DNA from: a virus
Lineage: Duplodnaviria; Heunggongvirae; Uroviricota; Caudoviricetes
Virus record (IMG/VR): IMGVR_UViG_2541047814_000001
Length of the DNA stretch: 50,937 nucleotides
Direction: 5' to 3' (one strand)
Within the stretch, counting starts at the first letter, position 1. Each line of letters starts with the position of its first letter. Under the pieces are notes generated by a model. That model saw only the letters and a list, made by a program, of their open reading frames with translations. It had not been told where the DNA came from and did no database searches. The position numbers and the translations under genes are program-made. This document shows positions 27,529-34,016 of the stretch, piece after piece.

Positions 27529-29028
27529 GTGACGCTCAATACTTCTCAGGTCAGTTACTATATGACTCAGCGTAAGAAAGGTATAACTCAGCATATCTCG
27601 GCCATGAAGGCTGGTATCTCAGTCCGTTCTGGTCGTCGGATCGAAAAAGGAGAGTGGGCAAAAAACAGTGTTCGGCACTGGCGCACACGCAAAGATCCTC
27701 TGGAAGCTGTGTGGGACAGCATGCTTGTTCCTCTGTTGAAAGAGAGGCCGGCTCTGACACCAACAACTCTGCTGGAGATGCTACAGGATAAATATCCCGG
27801 CCAGTACCCCAACAGCCTTCGAAGAACAATGCAACGGCGGGTCCGCGAATGGAAGCTACAGTATGGTGCAGAGCAGGAGGTCATGTTCCGCCAGCGACAT
27901 CAGCCCGGTCTGCGAGGTCTGTCGGACTTTACTGAACTGAAAGGTGTAGTTGTCACCATCGCCGGTAAGTTGTTGGCGCATAAGTTGTATCACTTCCGTC
28001 TGGAATGGAGCCACTGGAGCTGGATGCGGGTTGTGCTGGGTGGTGAGAGCTTCTCTGCTCTGGCTGAAGGTCTGCAGGAAGCCCTCGGACAACTGGGCGG
28101 AGTGCCGGTAGAACATAAAACGGACAGCCTGAGGGCAGCATGGAAACAACAGGGCGAAGATGGACGCCGCGAGCTGACTGAGCGTTATGCTGCTCTCTGT
28201 CAGCACTACGGAATGCAGGGCGTACACAATAATGCCGGTCGGGGCCACGAAAATGGCTCGGTTGAAAGTGCCCACGGACATCTGAAAAGGCGTATCTGTC
28301 AGGCGCTGATACTGCGGGGCAGTAACGACTTCAGCACCATAGAAGAATATCAGGCCTTCATCACTCAGCAGGTTATGCGGCACAACCGTAACAATCAGGA
28401 TCTGGTCAAGGAAGAACGTCTTCATCTGAAACCGCTGCCGCTTCGTCGCAGTGCTGACTATGATGAGCTGACTGTGAGGGTTAGCCGCAGCAGTACCATC
28501 AATGTGAAGCACGTCGTCTACAGCGTACCTTCCCGGCTTGTAGGTCAACTGTTACGGGTCCGGTTATGGGACGATCGTCTGAGCTGTTACGTTGGCAGCA
28601 GCGAGGTCATGAGCTGCCCACGTGTCAGACCAGAAAAAGGGAAGACGCGGGCCCGTCGTATCGACTTCCGACATGTGATCGACAGTCTGGCAAAAAAGCC
28701 CGGTGCGTTCTGCCATGCAACGCTGAGAAATGACATCCTGCCAGACGATGAATGGCGGAGGCTGTGGCGTCGCTTATGTAATCATCTGGAACCCGACATG
28801 GCAGGCAGGCTGATGGTACATGCTCTGAAACTGGCTGCAGGATACGACGATATCTCAGTCGTGGCAAAAGGTATGGAGCAGATGCTGAATACCCCGGGAA
28901 ACGTGGATCTGCACCGGCTGATGCGCTTCCTGGGTATAAAGGAAAAGGCGTTGCCGGTAGTCAATGTGAAACAGCATAACCTGAGCAGTTATGAGCAACT
29001 ACTGCGTGGCAAGGGAGGTTCGCAGTGA
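27529..29028 (+). CDS. istA: IS21-family transposase IstA (499 aa)
   Basis: N-terminal HTH, DDE-type core, typical IstA length; followed by istB. Confidence 0.85.
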   Translation: MTLNTSQVSYYMTQRKKGITQHISAMKAGISVRSGRRIEKGEWAKNSVRHWRTRKDPLEAVWDSMLVPLLKERPALTPTTLLEMLQDKYPGQYPNSLRRTMQRRVREWKLQYGAEQEVMFRQRHQPGLRGLSDFTELKGVVVTIAGKLLAHKLYHFRLEWSHWSWMRVVLGGESFSALAEGLQEALGQLGGVPVEHKTDSLRAAWKQQGEDGRRELTERYAALCQHYGMQGVHNNAGRGHENGSVESAHGHLKRRICQALILRGSNDFSTIEEYQAFITQQVMRHNRNNQDLVKEERLHLKPLPLRRSADYDELTVRVSRSSTINVKHVVYSVPSRLVGQLLRVRLWDDRLSCYVGSSEVMSCPRVRPEKGKTRARRIDFRHVIDSLAKKPGAFCHATLRNDILPDDEWRRLWRRLCNHLEPDMAGRLMVHALKLAAGYDDISVVAKGMEQMLNTPGNVDLHRLMRFLGIKEKALPVVNVKQHNLSSYEQLLRGKGGSQ

Positions 29029-29780
29029 GCAATATCCATCACCTTGAACGCAGCCTGCGTAAACTACGCCTGACACGAGTTGGAGCTGAATGGCACGCTC
29101 TGGAAAAACGAGCACTGGCAGAAGGCTGGACACCATCGCGCTATCTTCTGACGCTATGCAATGAAGAACTCCTGTGGCGCGAGAGTGAAAAACTGCGTCG
29201 TTATAAAAAGGAGGCCCGGTTGCCAGTTGCCAAAACGCTAAGCGAATACGACTTCAGTCAGGTGCCGGAACTGAATGGAGCTCAGTTCCGGCAACTCTGT
29301 GAAACGACAGACTGGGTTGATGCAGGAGAAAACGTTCTGCTGTTCGGAGCCAGCGGGTTGGGGAAAAGCCATCTGGCGGCAGCGATCGTGGATGGCGTAG
29401 TAGGCCAGGGCTACCGGGCCCGGTTCTACAGCGCAGGAGAGTTGTTGCAGGAACTACGTAAAGCCAGAGCGCAGTTGAAACTGAATGAGCTGCTACTGAA
29501 ACTGGATCGCTACCGGGTGATAGTGGTGGATGATCTTGGCTATGTCAAACGCGACAGCGCCGAAACGGGAGTACTGTTCGAGTTAATAGCGCATCGCTAT
29601 GAACGTGGGAGCCTGGTGATAACCAGTAACCATCCGTTCAGCATGTGGGGCAGCATCTTCGTGGATGAGACTATGGCGGTGGCGGCGGCAGACCGGCTGA
29701 TCCATCACGGATATATGTTCGAACTGAAAGGTGAAAGCTACAGGAAAAAGACAGCGAAGGCAGTAACAAGCGCGACTTGA
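29025..29780 (+). CDS. istB: IS21-family ATP-binding helper IstB (251 aa)
   Basis: Walker A GASGLGKSHLA and Walker B VIVVDDLGY. Confidence 0.85.
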   Translation: MSNIHHLERSLRKLRLTRVGAEWHALEKRALAEGWTPSRYLLTLCNEELLWRESEKLRRYKKEARLPVAKTLSEYDFSQVPELNGAQFRQLCETTDWVDAGENVLLFGASGLGKSHLAAAIVDGVVGQGYRARFYSAGELLQELRKARAQLKLNELLLKLDRYRVIVVDDLGYVKRDSAETGVLFELIAHRYERGSLVITSNHPFSMWGSIFVDETMAVAAADRLIHHGYMFELKGESYRKKTAKAVTSAT

Positions 29781-29828
29781 TGTCGCACTGAAGGGTGCGG
29801 CCAGTATAGTTGGCGCGAGTCGGCAAAA

Positions 29829-30272
29829 CTAGTTGACGTCTAATACCAGTTGCTTCTGCATCGTCATCAGCCGCTCTCTGAGGGTGAAATAATCCCGTGT
29901 AACGGTGTCTGCCAGTTGGGGGCCGGTTGCATTATCCACGCGGGCGGTGCCGGTGGCTTCACGCACGGGACCTGGACAGGTGGCGTTGATACGCAGGCGC
30001 TTACGACCAGCGGCAACGTCAGCGCGAAGAGTTTCATTTTCAGCTTTCGCATCAGCTAACTCCTTCGTGTATTTTGCATCGAGCGCAGCAACATCACGCT
30101 GACGCATCTGCATGTCAGTAATTGCCGCGTTCGCCAGCTTCAGTTCTCTGACATTTTTGTCGCGCTGGGCTTTGTAGGTAATGGCGTTATCACGGTAATG
30201 ATTCAGCCCCAGACTAAGCGCACCACAGGCCACCAGCAGGGCAATGATGACCACGCACAGTACGCGGTTCAT
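29829..30272 (-). CDS. Rz: i-spanin Rz (147 aa)
   Basis: N-terminal TM segment then coiled coil; directly downstream of endolysin; contains embedded Rz1. Confidence 0.8.
29867..30052 (-). CDS. Rz1: o-spanin Rz1 lipoprotein, embedded in Rz in the +1 frame (61 aa)
   Basis: Lipobox ...VVSAC followed by proline-rich [29 protein letters not shown], as in lambda Rz1. Confidence 0.75.
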
Positions 30273-30570
30273 TTCACCACCAGCGTATCTGACCGATGAA
30301 ATAACCGGAGGCCATAATCACAAACACCAGCCAGATAAGAATGAACTTCCAGGTGGATAATTTTTCAGCCATCACTCGAATCTCCCGAATCAGTTTGCTA
30401 AAATCAAACACACTTTCTCCTTTGACTTTTCCGGAGTCAGGAAACACAAAACCCCGCTTGGTGCCAACAAACGGGGTTTTTACTTTTATTCACTTACGTT
30501 TCGCCAGTTCGCAGGATTTCGTGTTATCCGCCCGCGTGGCCATACCTTATTTTTCAGCAAAATATTCTGC

Positions 30571-31104
30571 TTATCTGTCGATTCCCCAGCACGCCAGCGC
30601 GCTCTCCTGGTCACGACGGGATACCTGACCGTAGCAGTTGTTTGAACGAATACGGCAGTCTCTGCCACCGTCCTTAATCCACCAGCGAATCGCCTCACAC
30701 GCTCCCCTGCGATCACCTGCATTAATTCGTTTATAAAACGTCGACGGGAAACACTTACCGGGACCAATGTTGTACGGACAGAATGACGCGATCCCCGCTT
30801 TCTGGGGTTCACTCAATGGCACTCTGATGTTTTTCTCCACCCATGCCAGCGCCTTATCACGCTCAATGGCGTTAACCCGGTCGCATTTTTCCTTCGACAA
30901 CTTCATGCCCGGAACGACAGGTTTGCCATCCACCAGGATGGCACCGCGGCAGATGGTCCAGATACCCGCACCATCACGGTATGCCGTGGTGTGGTTACCT
31001 TCCTTTTCATCCAGAAACTGGTCGAGAATGTCAGGCGCAGGCGCACCAGCGGCAATCAGCGCCAGAACGGCAGCCGACAGGCCGTATCTGATTTTTGCGT
31101 TCAT
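30571..31104 (-). CDS. R: Endolysin R, T4-type lysozyme (GH24) with SAR-like N-terminus (177 aa)
   Basis: E-D-T catalytic region DEKEGNHTTAYRDGAGIWTICRG; hydrophobic Ala/Gly-rich N-terminal segment. Confidence 0.85.
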   Translation of the reverse strand: MNAKIRYGLSAAVLALIAAGAPAPDILDQFLDEKEGNHTTAYRDGAGIWTICRGAILVDGKPVVPGMKLSKEKCDRVNAIERDKALAWVEKNIRVPLSEPQKAGIASFCPYNIGPGKCFPSTFYKRINAGDRRGACEAIRWWIKDGGRDCRIRSNNCYGQVSRRDQESALACWGIDR

Positions 31105-31209
31105 GGATATTTATCAGGATTTATCGGTTTCTGAGCCCTGGATATGTTTATCAGTTCCAGCCTGTTGCCTCAGGCTGCTAACAGGTCAATACAATCATGA
31201 GGATTATTT

Positions 31210-31482
31210 ATGGACAATAACACCATTTCTCTACAGGAGTTGCTCGACAGCATTTCCAGGCTTCGGGAAGACGTGAATACCCTTACCGTCGCCTTCTCAT
31301 ATCTGGCATTCTCAATTCCAAGGGAACAGATGCAATCAACGCTGGCATCAATCCAGTTTGAATCATGCAATCCCAAATGGTCTCAGGAACAACAAGACTC
31401 TTTCAGGCGGCTTGCTGTATTACTGGATGAAAAATATGCTGGTAAAATTACCATTTCGGCGGACTCTTCAGAGAACCCGTAA
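31210..31482 (+). CDS. Hypothetical protein (90 aa) antisense within the lysis cassette
   Basis: GAGGA RBS 6 nt upstream of ATG; upstream TTGCCT...TACAAT promoter-like elements; non-repetitive composition; overlaps the 3' end of the YdfR-like gene. Confidence 0.35.
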   Translation: MDNNTISLQELLDSISRLREDVNTLTVAFSYLAFSIPREQMQSTLASIQFESCNPKWSQEQQDSFRRLAVLLDEKYAGKITISADSSENP

Positions 31483-31792
31483 TTATTCCCGGTAGTTTTC
31501 CTCTGTAGGTTATCAACACATCCTGCGCCTCTAAAATTACGGGGCGCTTTTCCGGCGACTGCTCATCCCCTTCACATAACCCGGCAGCAACATCCAGGAA
31601 GACCTGTCTGATGCTCCTTCTGGCTGCTGCCTCATAAAACTCCAGCGCGGCACCTTCAACACGGTCCAGCGAGATGTCCAGGTCAAAAATTTCACCGTCA
31701 AAGCGTTTTTTGTCCCGTAACGCTAAAGTTACCGTAACTTTATTCTCAAAATTGCGGATCCCTTTCACAATCAGTTCATAGTTTTGAGTCAT
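31448..31792 (-). CDS. YdfR-like (DUF1327-like) protein between holin and endolysin (114 aa)
   Basis: Position matches ydfR between essQ and rrrQ in Qin; family assignment from memory. Confidence 0.5.
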   Translation of the reverse strand: MTQNYELIVKGIRNFENKVTVTLALRDKKRFDGEIFDLDISLDRVEGAALEFYEAAARRSIRQVFLDVAAGLCEGDEQSPEKRPVILEAQDVLITYRGKLPGIITGSLKSPPKW

Positions 31793-31796
31793 TGAA

Positions 31797-32012
31797 TTAC
31801 TCTCCCCGTGCAGCCTTACGACGGTCCTCTCTGATTTTGAAATACAGGTTAGTCAGATATGTCAGCAGCCCAAACAGCAGACTCCCCAGCACGCCTATTG
31901 CCGCCCACTGAGACGGGGAAACCCTGTCCAGCAACTGCAGGAACCAGTAGCCCGTTCCCACCGCTGACGTGGTGTATGACACACCTGTTGTGATTTTTTC
32001 CATCTGGTACAT
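31797..32012 (-). CDS. S: Class II holin / pinholin, S21-like (71 aa, possible dual start MYQM)
   Basis: [67 protein letters not shown] closely resembles phage 21 S. Confidence 0.8.
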
Positions 32013-32162: not shown

Positions 32163-34016
32163 TTATGATGATGCCGGTGCATTTATCTCCAGCACCAGAC
32201 TTTCTATCTCAACGCCATACGCTGCATTTTTGGTAATATCCGTCAGCGTCAGCGCATTCAGCCCCAGTGTCAGACTGTCTTTTATGACCTGGAATGCCGG
32301 GCCAGCCACTCCATTCAGTTTCGGAGTAACCGTGGCACTGCCGGCGGTGAACACCAGCTCCAGCGTCTGCCAGTCGTTACTGTAATTCCCGAACTCGCCC
32401 AACTTTGTGTTTCCTGCTTTCTTGTGATGCATCAGATTCAGTTTGCCGTCTGTGGTCTGGGTGAAGAACGACATCAGGAACGGGTTACCAGTCCCGGTCA
32501 TCGCCACGACGTCAGGTAACGCTACATCGGTATACAGATAAATTCCCAGACCGAACTGGTTGTTGGTCAGTGCGCCTGACAGTCGAAACTTACAGCTCAG
32601 TCTGCCACCCCGTGTCAGCAGGGAGACTGCGTCATCCACCGGGCGCGTCAGGGACCAGGCTTTATTGCTCTGCTTGGTGATCTTAAATACACCATCTGAC
32701 AACTGAATTCCGCCATTCTTAATGCTCCAGCCCTGCGCAGCAGCGTCTCCGGCTGTCGGCAACAGGGAGATTGTGCGTATGGATGCATCTTCAGACGGCC
32801 CCGATGGCGTGTCGCCGCCGGGCGAGGCTTTGATTTCCGGTGCCTTACCACTAATGAAGGCTAAGGTGCGACCGGCTACGTTCAGAATAGCCGTTGCCAT
32901 ACGATCGGGAATAATGCCACGACGCGCCCATGAGCTGAAATGCGTCGGGCGATTTGATGATACCCAGTTTTTGTTCGTTCGGGATGCCGAACCGTAATAA
33001 CCAGACCCGGCAATATCAGGATCTTCTGACGGGTTGTTTGTCGGTGTATTAACTCCGCTACCATCGGTCATAAAGGGAACAAAATAAATCTGCTGGGATT
33101 CTTTACCTTTATATGCACCATATACCACTTCATATTGCGTACCGTGTTCTTGTTTCCACGCGTATGTCGTGTCGCCACAAATCCAGGGGACTGATGCCGG
33201 ACTTCCACCGTGACACTGCGCCGCCAGCCCGGCAAGGTCAGCACGGAACTGCTGTACCATTGCAAGAAATGCTGCTGGCTGCTGGGCGTAACTGGCATTC
33301 GTCATATCGAATTCCCCCTGCATCCAGCATATCGCCAGCAAAACGTTTTTCGGGTTTTTCTGCAATGCTGCCTTCGTGCGGAAAAGCAGATCCTGATATA
33401 ACGGCTTACCCACTCCCCAGCGAGCCGAATCCTGACTGGCTCCCGTGGACTCGCTGAATGTCCCCTCCGTGCCCTGGGTGAATGCCGAACCACCACGACA
33501 GCATGGTACCAGCAGGATCCCCGCATTATTAGGGATATACGGAAGCAGTTTTTTGGCAATATGTAAGCCCTGTCCGACACAGCCGTACTGCCCTTTGCTC
33601 AGGTCAGCCCGGGGATGGTTAATCGTACTCATATCCTGAACATCATGCAGACAATGGTCAGCAGGAATGATGTCGTTAAATACGCATACTTCACCACCGG
33701 GAGTCACTGTGTTACGACGGGCCAGTTGCTTAATGCGCGGATGGGGCGCATCGTATGAATCCGGAAGCGGAAGCCCTTCACCGTAAGCCATGGCATTGGA
33801 TTGCCCGGCCAGTACGATGACGTAGTACCACTCCGGCTCAGTTGCACCACTGACGACCACATCACCTTCTGCTGCAATCGCCTGCATCAGGGTATAAGGG
33901 GTTATGGCCACCGGACTACCAAACGGCTGCCAGCCCTCCTTCAGTTTTTGTGTCAGTCGTTTCGCAAGGTCTGACGGCGATGCCGCCCTGACCACGTCAT
34001 AGTGTTTAAATGCCAT
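32163..34016 (-). CDS. nanS-p: Prophage sialate O-acetylesterase NanS-p-like (DUF1737 N-terminus + SGNH/SASA esterase, 617 aa)
   Basis: SGNH motif LAGQSNAMAYGEG; N-terminal MAFKHYDVVRAASPSDLAKRL domain; position downstream of Q/tRNAs as in Stx phages. Confidence 0.75.
   Translation of the reverse strand: MAFKHYDVVRAASPSDLAKRLTQKLKEGWQPFGSPVAITPYTLMQAIAAEGDVVVSGATEPEWYYVIVLAGQSNAMAYGEGLPLPDSYDAPHPRIKQLARRNTVTPGGEVCVFNDIIPADHCLHDVQDMSTINHPRADLSKGQYGCVGQGLHIAKKLLPYIPNNAGILLVPCCRGGSAFTQGTEGTFSESTGASQDSARWGVGKPLYQDLLFRTKAALQKNPKNVLLAICWMQGEFDMTNASYAQQPAAFLAMVQQFRADLAGLAAQCHGGSPASVPWICGDTTYAWKQEHGTQYEVVYGAYKGKESQQIYFVPFMTDGSGVNTPTNNPSEDPDIAGSGYYGSASRTNKNWVSSNRPTHFSSWARRGIIPDRMATAILNVAGRTLAFISGKAPEIKASPGGDTPSGPSEDASIRTISLLPTAGDAAAQGWSIKNGGIQLSDGVFKITKQSNKAWSLTRPVDDAVSLLTRGGRLSCKFRLSGALTNNQFGLGIYLYTDVALPDVVAMTGTGNPFLMSFFTQTTDGKLNLMHHKKAGNTKLGEFGNYSNDWQTLELVFTAGSATVTPKLNGVAGPAFQVIKDSLTLGLNALTLTDITKNAAYGVEIESLVLEINAPASS

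What the first reader, a model, noticed from the sequence alone, without database searches (positions are those of the whole stretch)
31105..31482. Antisense 90-aa ORF with its own promoter and RBS inserted between the YdfR-like gene and endolysin R
The lysis genes run holin, YdfR-like, endolysin, Rz/Rz1 on the minus strand, with a roughly 340-bp gap before R. On the plus strand a 90-aa ORF (31210-31482) has a GAGGA RBS and upstream TTGCCT...TACAAT elements, and overlaps the YdfR-like 3' end. Its composition looks like real protein, not repeat translation. A gene convergent within a lysis cassette is unusual and could affect lysis timing.
Basis: seen in the sequence. Interest (0 to 1): 0.45.

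Follow-up and report, generated by a model that had tools for sequence, protein, structure and literature searches.

The report
Small accessory gene inside prophage lysis cassette
The 90-codon reading frame lying backwards between two lysis genes of this E. coli prophage is a real, conserved gene of unknown function, already annotated as hypothetical. It looks like an ordinary phage add-on gene ("moron") and there is no sign that it times lysis.

Summary
It is a real gene. In its non-overlapping 79 codons dN/dS is 0.2-0.3, and none of 11 diverged copies has a stop, including copies from Citrobacter and from a decayed remnant.

It is not new. RefSeq annotates it as hypothetical protein WP_000369850.1, PHROGs holds it as phrog_2411, and about 19% of complete E. 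coli genomes carry it. Compared with otherwise collinear holin-ydfR-endolysin cassettes it is a ~294-bp indel.

Relatives occur without ydfR:
- antisense in a prophage tail operon;
- on IncF plasmids next to an autotransporter gene;
- next to iha;
- as a syntenic chromosomal gene (pyrC-dinI-X-bssS) in Serratia, Winslowiella and Sodalis.

The protein is acidic and soluble. It is predicted to form three helices (pLDDT 83) and has no informative sequence or fold relatives.

The proposed promoter has a 19-nt spacer, and its -10 lies so close to the RBS that the leader would be about 8-10 nt. This leaves the promoter unproven.

Best reading: a moron-type accessory gene of unknown function. A role in lysis timing has no support.

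The parts
31210..31482 (+). ORF90: coding sequence of a 90-aa, 10.2-kDa, acidic (pI 4.5) soluble protein. It corresponds to RefSeq WP_000369850.1 and phrog_2411.
   Evidence: ORF listing. Identical CDS annotated by PGAP. phrog_2411 match, E 1e-58. dN/dS 0.2-0.3 and no stops in 11 diverged copies. AF2 model with three helices at 8-34, 38-52 and 59-77, pLDDT 82.6, tail 80-90 disordered. pI and hydropathy.
31199..31203 (+). Shine-Dalgarno sequence GAGGA, 6 nt upstream of the ATG.
   Evidence: Sequence. An (A/G)GGA core at the same distance is kept in 9 of 11 diverged copies, including the Citrobacter and Logan copies whose upstream DNA is otherwise unrelated. L098 has AGGC and L006 has GAGGAG with a 3-nt insertion.
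31165..31195 (+). Candidate sigma-70 promoter TTGCCT-19 nt-TACAAT. Weak and unproven.
   Evidence: Best-scoring hexamer pair upstream of the ORF in my own scan. It was missed by the consensus scan because of the 19-nt spacer. The -10 positions A2 and T6 are kept in the E. coli-clade copies (TACAAT, TAGCAT, CACAAT, TATAAT), but the element is absent in Citrobacter and L092.
31158..31177 (.). Inverted repeat CAGCCTG-ttgcct-CAGGCTG. It lies at the left edge of the indel and encloses the -35 candidate. Its role is unknown.
   Evidence: Sequence. Folds to -13 kcal/mol, z-score -1.4, which is not significant. Partly kept in relatives.
31163..31456 (.). Segment of about 294 bp that is present here and absent from otherwise collinear holin-ydfR-R cassettes. 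Boundaries are good to about 10 bp. It supplies the last two codons and the stop codon of ydfR.
   Evidence: Alignment with 'empty' cassettes from O157:H7 TT12A and AR_0149. GC is 0.41-0.46, against 0.52-0.58 in R.
31525..31551 (+). Hairpin GCGCCTC-9 nt-GGGGCGC followed by TTTT, 43 nt after the ORF90 stop and inside ydfR. A possible weak terminator.
   Evidence: Folds to -12.3 kcal/mol, z-score -1.7. It does not meet the terminator scan's criteria. The homologous hairpin is kept, with a stronger stem, in the decayed iha-linked copy where ydfR is gone. It is also present in cassettes without ORF90.
31448..31792 (-). ydfR-like gene (DUF1327, 114 aa). It is convergent with ORF90 and overlaps it by 35 bp.
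   Evidence: Pfam PF07041, E 7e-43. PGAP annotates it as 'YdfR family protein'.
30571..31104 (-). Endolysin R (phage lysozyme, 177 aa), downstream of the indel in the late transcript.
   Evidence: Pfam PF00959, E 1e-23. PGAP annotates it as 'lysozyme'.
31797..32012 (-). Class II (P21-type) holin.
   Evidence: Pfam PF04971, E 9e-33. PGAP annotates it as 'class II holin'.

Best explanation
ORF90 is a genuine, translated accessory gene of the moron type. It is a single-gene cassette lying backwards between ydfR and the endolysin gene of a P21-type lysis cassette.

The product is a small, acidic, cytoplasmic three-helix protein. It belongs to an unnamed family found across Enterobacterales. The family has a syntenic chromosomal version (pyrC-dinI-X-bssS-solA) in Serratia, Winslowiella and Sodalis, and it has reached prophages and plasmids at several unrelated positions.

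Shown:
- it is coding and under purifying selection;
- it is a discrete indel;
- it keeps its own ribosome-binding site;
- the family spreads independently of ydfR and of lysis genes.

Inferred: it is transcribed on its own from the weak TTGCCT-19-TACAAT promoter or another start near it. Because it runs against the late transcript, it would be made mainly while the prophage is repressed. The protein would then act by binding a host or phage protein, for example in stress response or superinfection, and not by taking part in lysis. The position next to ydfR reflects where the cassette landed or was kept, not a functional tie.
For: Coding status:
- dN/dS is 0.11-0.33 against the window in codons 1-79.
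- There are no stops in 11 copies that go down to 57-60% amino-acid identity.
- Third codon positions vary most; Fisher p ranges from 2e-3 to 3e-10.
- All 17 distinct DNA versions among 98 loci read without a frameshift or premature stop; one, L092, ends naturally at 85 aa.

Indel: the alignment with empty cassettes shows it, and GC is lower than in the flanks.

Independence from ydfR and from lysis:
- L093 keeps the ORF although ydfR is deleted.
- In L006 the ORF survives in a decayed remnant next to iha, found in 60 genomes.
- An IncF plasmid paralogue has unrelated flanks.
- An Atlantibacter copy lies antisense between the tail genes M and L.
- The chromosomal copy is syntenic in three genera.

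Protein:
- No membrane segment, pI 4.5.
- Confident three-helix model.
- No match in Pfam, NCBIfam, PADLOC or PDB sequences.

Precedent: the moron definition and the gp15/YebO case, a moron with chromosomal enterobacterial homologues, are described in PMC3594210.
Against: - No expression data were available, so transcription, timing and translation are all inferred.
- The promoter is weak: a 19-nt spacer, and a start that would fall at or inside the RBS.
- No clear terminator was found.
- The direction of the indel is not settled; it could be an insertion here or a deletion elsewhere. The last ~26 nt of the ORF lie in DNA that empty cassettes also have.
- In three different lysis contexts (E. 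coli, the Stx2k phage, Citrobacter) the gene keeps the same convergent overlap with the gene upstream. This could reflect a functional link and not just shared descent.
- A minority of copies are frameshifted.
- The molecular function is unknown.
Confidence: 0.7

Rival explanations
1. Lysis-timing modulator. Convergent transcription or the antisense RNA from ORF90 would damp ydfR, holin or endolysin expression. Alternatively, the protein would act on holin or endolysin.
For: The gene lies inside the cassette and is antisense to the late mRNA. It overlaps ydfR by 35 bp and lengthens the ydfR-R spacer from about 55 to 343 nt.
Against: Selection acts on the protein sequence, not merely on the RNA. 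Relatives sit in a tail operon, on plasmids and in non-phage chromosomal loci. The protein has no membrane segment and no similarity to lysis proteins. The candidate promoter is weak compared with what a Q-antiterminated late transcript is expected to deliver, which is established lambdoid biology.
Confidence: 0.1
2. Functional partner of YdfR. The two would form a convergent pair in which ORF90 counteracts or regulates YdfR. YdfR from the Qin prophage was recently reported to bind the RNase E catalytic domain and possibly RNA.
For: The same tail-to-tail overlap with a ydfR-type gene is seen in E. coli, in phage phiSTEC1575-Stx2k, and in Citrobacter. In the last two the downstream lysis genes differ. 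The overlapped C-terminal tail ITGSL[KR]xPxK[WL] is shared. YdfR binding to RNase E is reported in PMC13232886.
Against: Most ydfR cassettes lack ORF90: about 4400 genomes match the region and about 1050 carry the ORF. ORF90 persists where ydfR is deleted or decayed. Other family members have no ydfR nearby. The Citrobacter neighbour shows no detectable DUF1327 similarity.
Confidence: 0.1
3. A chance ORF in a non-coding spacer. Automatic pipelines would have annotated it only because the frame is open.
For: There is no Pfam or NCBIfam family and no experimental evidence. A minority of copies are frameshifted.
Against: dN/dS is well below 1 in this frame only. The frame stays open at about 60% amino-acid identity across genera and contexts. 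The three-helix model becomes more confident as the alignment deepens, from pLDDT 73 to 83. A profile search finds 239 family members.
Confidence: 0.02

Closest known systems
HK97 gp15 moron and the chromosomal YebO family (Cumby et al. 2012; review PMC3594210)
   Same: A single small gene added to a late operon of a lambdoid phage. Its homologues are mostly chromosomal genes of Enterobacteriaceae with unknown function. It is presumed to be expressed from the prophage.
   Different: gp15 is an inner-membrane protein shown to block superinfection, whereas ORF90 is soluble and acidic with no known activity. gp15 lies in the tail operon. ORF90 lies in the lysis cassette on the opposite strand. 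No sequence relationship was found.
Lambda bor (iss) and lom
   Same: Accessory genes with their own expression signals placed among late genes. bor/iss sits right beside the spanin genes on the opposite strand, as seen for iss in locus L008.
   Different: Bor is a lipoprotein and Lom an outer-membrane protein, and both have known serum-resistance or adhesion phenotypes. ORF90 has no signal peptide. It lies inside the cassette, between ydfR and R, not after it.
phrog_2411 / RefSeq WP_000369850.1 'hypothetical protein'
   Same: It is this very family: a full-length match with E 1e-58 and an identical annotated CDS.
   Different: Nothing differs. These entries carry no function.
YdfR / DUF1327 (PF07041)
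   Same: It is the neighbouring gene and is overlapped by 35 bp. It too is a small soluble prophage protein found between holin and endolysin.
   Different: It has an unrelated sequence, lies on the opposite strand, and usually occurs without ORF90.
AroQ-type chorismate mutase fold (e.g. 1ecm)
   Different: The scores are low. The family's conserved residues are hydrophobic plus E10, E51, N54 and Q62, with no conserved Arg or Lys. From my own knowledge, the AroQ catalytic residues are Arg and Lys. There is no sequence match. This is a generic helical resemblance only.

Membership tests
Moron (as defined in PMC3594210, after Juhala et al. 2000) | Extra DNA relative to otherwise collinear related phages | tested here: met
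   A ~294-bp segment (31163-31456) is absent from the O157:H7 TT12A and AR_0149 cassettes, which align on both sides of it.
Moron (as defined in PMC3594210, after Juhala et al. 2000) | Base composition different from surrounding genes | tested here: inconclusive
   GC is 0.41-0.46 across the ORF and 0.52-0.58 in R. Parts of ydfR are also at 0.41, so the contrast is modest.
Moron (as defined in PMC3594210, after Juhala et al. 2000) | Own promoter | tested here: inconclusive
   The only candidate is TTGCCT-19 nt-TACAAT. It matches 9 of 12 positions, has an atypical spacer, and its -10 abuts the RBS. The -10 is kept within the E. coli clade.
Moron (as defined in PMC3594210, after Juhala et al. 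2000) | Own terminator | tested here: inconclusive
   The hairpin at 31525-31551 is weak (-12.3 kcal/mol, 4 T) and fails the scan. It is kept in the iha-linked remnant but is also present in cassettes without the ORF.
Moron (as defined in PMC3594210, after Juhala et al. 2000) | Expressed from the repressed prophage | not testable with these tools
   No transcriptome, TSS or ribosome-profiling data were available for a strain carrying it.
Moron (as defined in PMC3594210, after Juhala et al. 2000) | Spread by horizontal transfer to different genomes and positions | tested here: met
   Family members were found in a lysis cassette, a tail operon, next to iha, on IncF plasmids, and at a chromosomal dinI-bssS locus.
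phrog_2411 | Full-length match to the family profile | tested here: met
   E 1.1e-58, residues 1-90 matched to profile positions 1-90 of 90.
Lysis-cassette proteins (holin, antiholin, endolysin, spanin) | Encoded on the late transcript, with a membrane segment, signal sequence or muralytic domain | tested here: not met
   The gene is on the opposite strand. There is no Pfam lysis family. The maximum 19-residue hydropathy is 0.75, so there is no membrane segment.
Obligate two-gene pair with YdfR (toxin-antitoxin-like) | The two genes always occur together | tested here: not met
   ydfR occurs without the ORF in most genomes. The ORF occurs without ydfR in L093, L006, L100, L109 and L107.
Known anti-phage defence proteins (PADLOC-DB 2.0) | Match to a defence-system profile | tested here: not met
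   There were no hits for ORF90 or for the plasmid and Atlantibacter relatives. The chromosomal relative gave one weak, partial hit (E 0.005), taken as chance.

The most novel reading that the evidence does not exclude
The family would be a host stress-response small protein. Its chromosomal home lies between the SOS gene dinI and the biofilm regulator bssS. Temperate phages and virulence plasmids would have captured it repeatedly. The prophage copy, made in the lysogen, would tune SOS or RecA signalling, RNA turnover or biofilm state. In that way it would influence when the prophage is induced, not how the cell lyses.
Probability: 0.1. Interest if true: 0.55.

Novelty: new member of a known kind. 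Interest (0 to 1): 0.3.

Why it matters
The gene itself is routine: one more uncharacterised accessory gene in a lambdoid prophage, already present in the databases.

What this work adds is a family picture. A conserved small protein of about 90 aa has a fixed chromosomal locus in several enterobacterial families. It also has repeated copies in prophages and virulence-associated plasmids or islands. About 20% of complete E. coli genomes carry the prophage copy.

If a phenotype were found, such as phage exclusion, an effect on stress or SOS, or an effect on induction, it would assign a function to a widespread orphan family. It would also give a second example of the gp15/YebO pattern, in which a host gene is recruited as a moron.

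For annotation, the result confirms that the RefSeq call is a real gene.

Tried and rejected
- **Family libraries.** Pfam, NCBIfam and PADLOC searches of ORF90 and eight distant relatives gave nothing above noise. The 15-residue 'Mip' hit (E 0.04) and the 'McrBC' and 'DUF496' hits are taken as chance.
- **Rfam** found no RNA family over the region.
- **LexA box** upstream of ORF90 or of the chromosomal orthologue: none was seen. CTGT...ACAG at 31162-31184 has the wrong spacing (15 nt, not 8), and only dinI itself has a box.
- **Shared promoter motif** between the phage and chromosomal copies: none was found.
- **Literature.** 'ybl58' gave 0 papers. 'DUF1327' gave 1 paper that was not relevant. 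'YdfR' gave only the RNase E interaction study.
- **Citrobacter neighbour.** I could not show that this 238-aa protein is a YdfR homologue.
- **Direction of the indel** (insertion or deletion) could not be decided from the flanks.

Full report
**1. The observation**

The window holds a lambdoid prophage whose late genes run on the minus strand. Around the finding the minus-strand order is as follows:
- a P21-type class II holin (31797-32012, PF04971);
- a YdfR/DUF1327 gene (31448-31792, PF07041, E 7e-43);
- lysozyme R (30571-31104, PF00959);
- Rz (29829-30272, PF03245) with Rz1 embedded (29867-30052).

On the plus strand an ATG-initiated ORF of 90 codons runs from 31210 to 31482. It overlaps the last 35 bp of ydfR. 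GAGGA lies at 31199-31203, 6 nt before the ATG. TTGCCT (31165-31170) and TACAAT (31190-31195) are present.

- The hexamers are 19 nt apart. That is why the consensus scan (16-18 nt) did not list them, although they are the best pair in my own scan.
- The -10 ends only 3 nt before the GAGGA RBS. A normal start about 7 nt downstream would fall within the GAGGA and leave a leader of roughly 8-10 nt. The promoter and the RBS, as proposed, fit together only awkwardly.

**2. Is it a gene?**

Yes. I collected 98 related loci from complete E. coli genomes, phage records, IMG/VR, GTDB genomes and metagenome assemblies. Among them are 17 distinct DNA versions of the ORF, and all read without a frameshift or premature stop; one, L092, ends naturally at 85 aa.

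I then took the window copy and ten diverged copies, with amino-acid identity to the window ranging from about 83% down to 57%. They include Escherichia ruysiae, a Citrobacter genome and a decayed remnant. The analysis was limited to codons 1-79, where nothing is encoded on the other strand. The results:
- The ORF frame has no stops in any sequence.
- Pooled pN/pS is 0.34, and median pairwise dN/dS is 0.20.
- Three other frames give 1.0-1.6 and carry 1-9 stops.
- The antisense frame that shares third positions mimics the ratio but has stops in most sequences.
- Variable columns by codon position are 44, 32 and 70 (chi-square p 4e-4).
- Synonymous excess is significant in single pairs, with Fisher p from 2e-3 to 3e-10.

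The (A/G)GGA core of the RBS is kept at the same distance in 9 of 11 copies. These include the Citrobacter and L092 copies, where the upstream DNA is otherwise unrelated; L098 has AGGC and L006 has GAGGAG with a 3-nt insertion. In the 35-bp overlap the ORF's second codon position, which is ydfR's third, varies most. AlphaFold predicts residues 80-90 as disordered. The tail therefore seems free to vary while ydfR sets the constraint there.

**3. It is already in the databases and it is common**

PGAP annotates exactly this CDS as hypothetical protein WP_000369850.1 in many complete genomes. PHROGs holds it as phrog_2411, function unknown, with a full-length match at E 1e-58. Pfam and NCBIfam have no family for it.

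The ORF region is present over at least 80% of its length in 1053 of 5426 complete E. coli genomes. Some part of the surrounding holin-ydfR-R region is present in 4393 of them. IMG/VR holds 209 matching viral contigs, and three deposited phage records carry it. A minority of database versions are frameshifted into the +2 frame or truncated, as expected for decaying prophages.

**4. Anatomy of the site**

Cassettes that lack the ORF (O157:H7 TT12A, AR_0149) have ydfR ending 50-63 bp before R. Aligned with the window, both flanks match and the window carries about 294 extra bases, 31163-31456.

The extra segment brings the ORF's RBS and its first 82 codons. On the other strand it brings the last two codons and the stop of ydfR, giving ...SPPKW* here and ...TPPLA* in O157. 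The last ~26 nt of the ORF lie in DNA that the empty cassettes also have.

The direction of the event, insertion here or deletion there, cannot be settled from the flanks. The plasmid and iha-linked copies keep a related 3' tail, so the tail may belong to the gene. GC across the ORF is 0.41-0.46 against 0.52-0.58 in R, a modest contrast.

An inverted repeat, CAGCCTG-ttgcct-CAGGCTG (31158-31177), sits on the left edge and encloses the -35 candidate. It is partly conserved but not statistically remarkable.

Downstream, a 7-bp hairpin followed by TTTT (31525-31551) could act as a weak terminator. It is retained, with a stronger stem, in a remnant where ydfR has decayed. It also exists in cassettes without the ORF and fails the terminator scan.

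**5. Where relatives live**

| Context | Evidence |
|---|---|
| E. coli, E. albertii, E. ruysiae and Shigella prophages: same position as the window | |
| Phage phiSTEC1575-Stx2k: holin-ydfR-ORF, followed by a different holin and an M15 endolysin module | |
| Citrobacter: an 83-aa homologue overlaps the 3' end of a 238-aa gene and is followed by a family-3 holin and a CHAP endolysin. The 238-aa protein shows no detectable DUF1327 similarity but shares the C-terminal tail ITGSL[KR]xPxK[WL] | |
| Locus L093: the ORF is intact although ydfR is largely deleted | |
| 60 E. coli genomes including SMS-3-5: an intact 57%-identical copy in a decayed remnant of the cassette next to iha, with R and ydfR no longer readable | |
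| 75 E. coli plasmid records (70 typed as conjugative; the two read are IncF): an 89-aa paralogue (WP_000976359.1, called 'Ybl58' by one source). In the two read it lies 3' of a large autotransporter gene, with flanks unrelated to any lysis cassette | |
| Atlantibacter prophage: an 88-aa member lies antisense between the tail genes M (plus a 71-aa ORF) and L | |
| Klebsiella: a member lies close to the terminase region | |
| Serratia (L111), a Serratia-like metagenome contig (L107), Winslowiella and Sodalis: ~90-aa members occupy a fixed chromosomal position, pyrC-dinI-X-bssS-solA, on the same strand, after the dinI terminator | |

A profile search finds 239 family members, all unnamed. An exhaustive profile search of 1.8 billion representatives finds only 21, so the family is narrow and confined to Enterobacterales.

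**6. The protein**

The protein is 10.2 kDa with pI 4.5 and no hydrophobic segment long enough to span a membrane. With a 59-sequence alignment AlphaFold gives three helices (8-34, 38-52, 59-77). Mean pLDDT is 82.6, 48 residues score at least 90, and residues 80-90 form a disordered tail. A shallower alignment gave pLDDT 73.

The conserved positions are mostly hydrophobic (L11, I15, L25, A28, F29, Y31, L32, F34, F65, L68, A69, L72), plus E10, E51, N54 and Q62.

No informative structural relative was found:
- Foldseek against PDB and BFVD gave nothing significant.
- There was no PDB sequence match and no defence-system profile match.

**7. Interpretation**

The features fit the moron concept as summarised in PMC3594210. 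That concept describes an add-on relative to collinear phages, with different composition and its own expression signals, expressed from the prophage, and often with chromosomal homologues. The gp15/YebO case is the close parallel. Lambda bor/iss, which lies on the opposite strand beside the spanin genes (seen as iss in L008), shows that a backwards gene at the lysis cassette is not exceptional.

Membership status by criterion:
- The add-on and horizontal-spread criteria are met.
- The composition, promoter and terminator criteria are inconclusive.
- Expression could not be tested.

I therefore file it as a probable moron-type accessory gene whose product acts in the cytoplasm, most likely by binding another protein. 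Its wide occurrence outside lysis cassettes, its strand, and the lack of any membrane or muralytic feature argue against a role in lysis timing.

A functional pairing with YdfR is a minority possibility. It is suggested by the recurring tail-to-tail overlap. It gains some interest from the report that Qin YdfR binds the RNase E catalytic domain and may bind RNA (PMC13232886). But each gene is often found without the other.

**8. Verdict**

- Novelty: a new member of a known kind, an uncharacterised moron family that is already annotated as hypothetical.
- Interest is low to moderate. It rests mainly on the family picture and on how widespread this orphan gene is.

Noticed in passing
window 27529-29826 and 29829-30272: An IS21-family element (istA 27529-29028, IstB 29025-29780) lies against the 3' end of Rz. 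The window's Rz matches an intact 155-aa Rz only to residue 142 and then ends after five unrelated residues. The spanin is therefore truncated and this prophage is probably impaired in lysis.
   Followed up: partly
window 30448-30480: A strong 13-bp hairpin followed by a T-run lies on the minus strand between R and Rz, inside the late operon. A sub-threshold Rfam 'rimP leader' hit (E 0.3) covers it on the plus strand and is probably chance.
   Followed up: no
window 30274-30447 (-): A 57-aa ORF with a hydrophobic C-terminal segment lies between R and Rz. In a related prophage (L001) PGAP annotates three small hypothetical genes in the R-Rz gap, though the window's R-Rz gap is much shorter than L001's. 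It has no Pfam match.
   Followed up: no
L107 4001-4279; L111, L112, L114 3001-3280: Chromosomal members of the ORF90 family occupy a fixed locus, pyrC-dinI-X-bssS-solA, in Serratia, Winslowiella and Sodalis. They lie after the dinI terminator and seem to have their own promoter. Only dinI has a LexA box.
   Followed up: partly
L109 5001-5270, L110 5001-5270 (two IncF plasmids; 75 PLSDB records hold the paralogue): An 89-aa paralogue (WP_000976359.1, 'Ybl58' in one source) lies 3' of a large autotransporter gene and upstream of an HTH regulator on conjugative E. coli plasmids. Its flanks are unrelated to any lysis cassette.
   Followed up: partly
L006 1400-1900: In 60 E. coli genomes, including SMS-3-5, a decayed remnant of the R-ORF-ydfR segment sits next to iha. 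Only the ORF90 homologue remains intact, at 57% amino-acid identity.
   Followed up: yes
window 31448-31480 (-) and L011 3239-3275 (-): YdfR and the apparently unrelated 238-aa Citrobacter protein share the C-terminal tail ITGSL[KR]xPxK[WL]. This is exactly the part overlapped by the ORF90 homologue. The overlap segment may therefore travel with the ORF.
   Followed up: partly
window 31358-31495 (+2 frame): Some database versions of the protein (94 aa) are frameshifted from the ORF90 frame into this 45-codon +2 frame. These are probably decaying copies or sequencing errors.
   Followed up: no
window 32163-34016 (-): A 617-aa SASA-family carbohydrate esterase (DUF1737 + SASA + DUF6645, NanS-p-like) lies just upstream of the holin. 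This is typical cargo of Stx-like lambdoid prophages.
   Followed up: no
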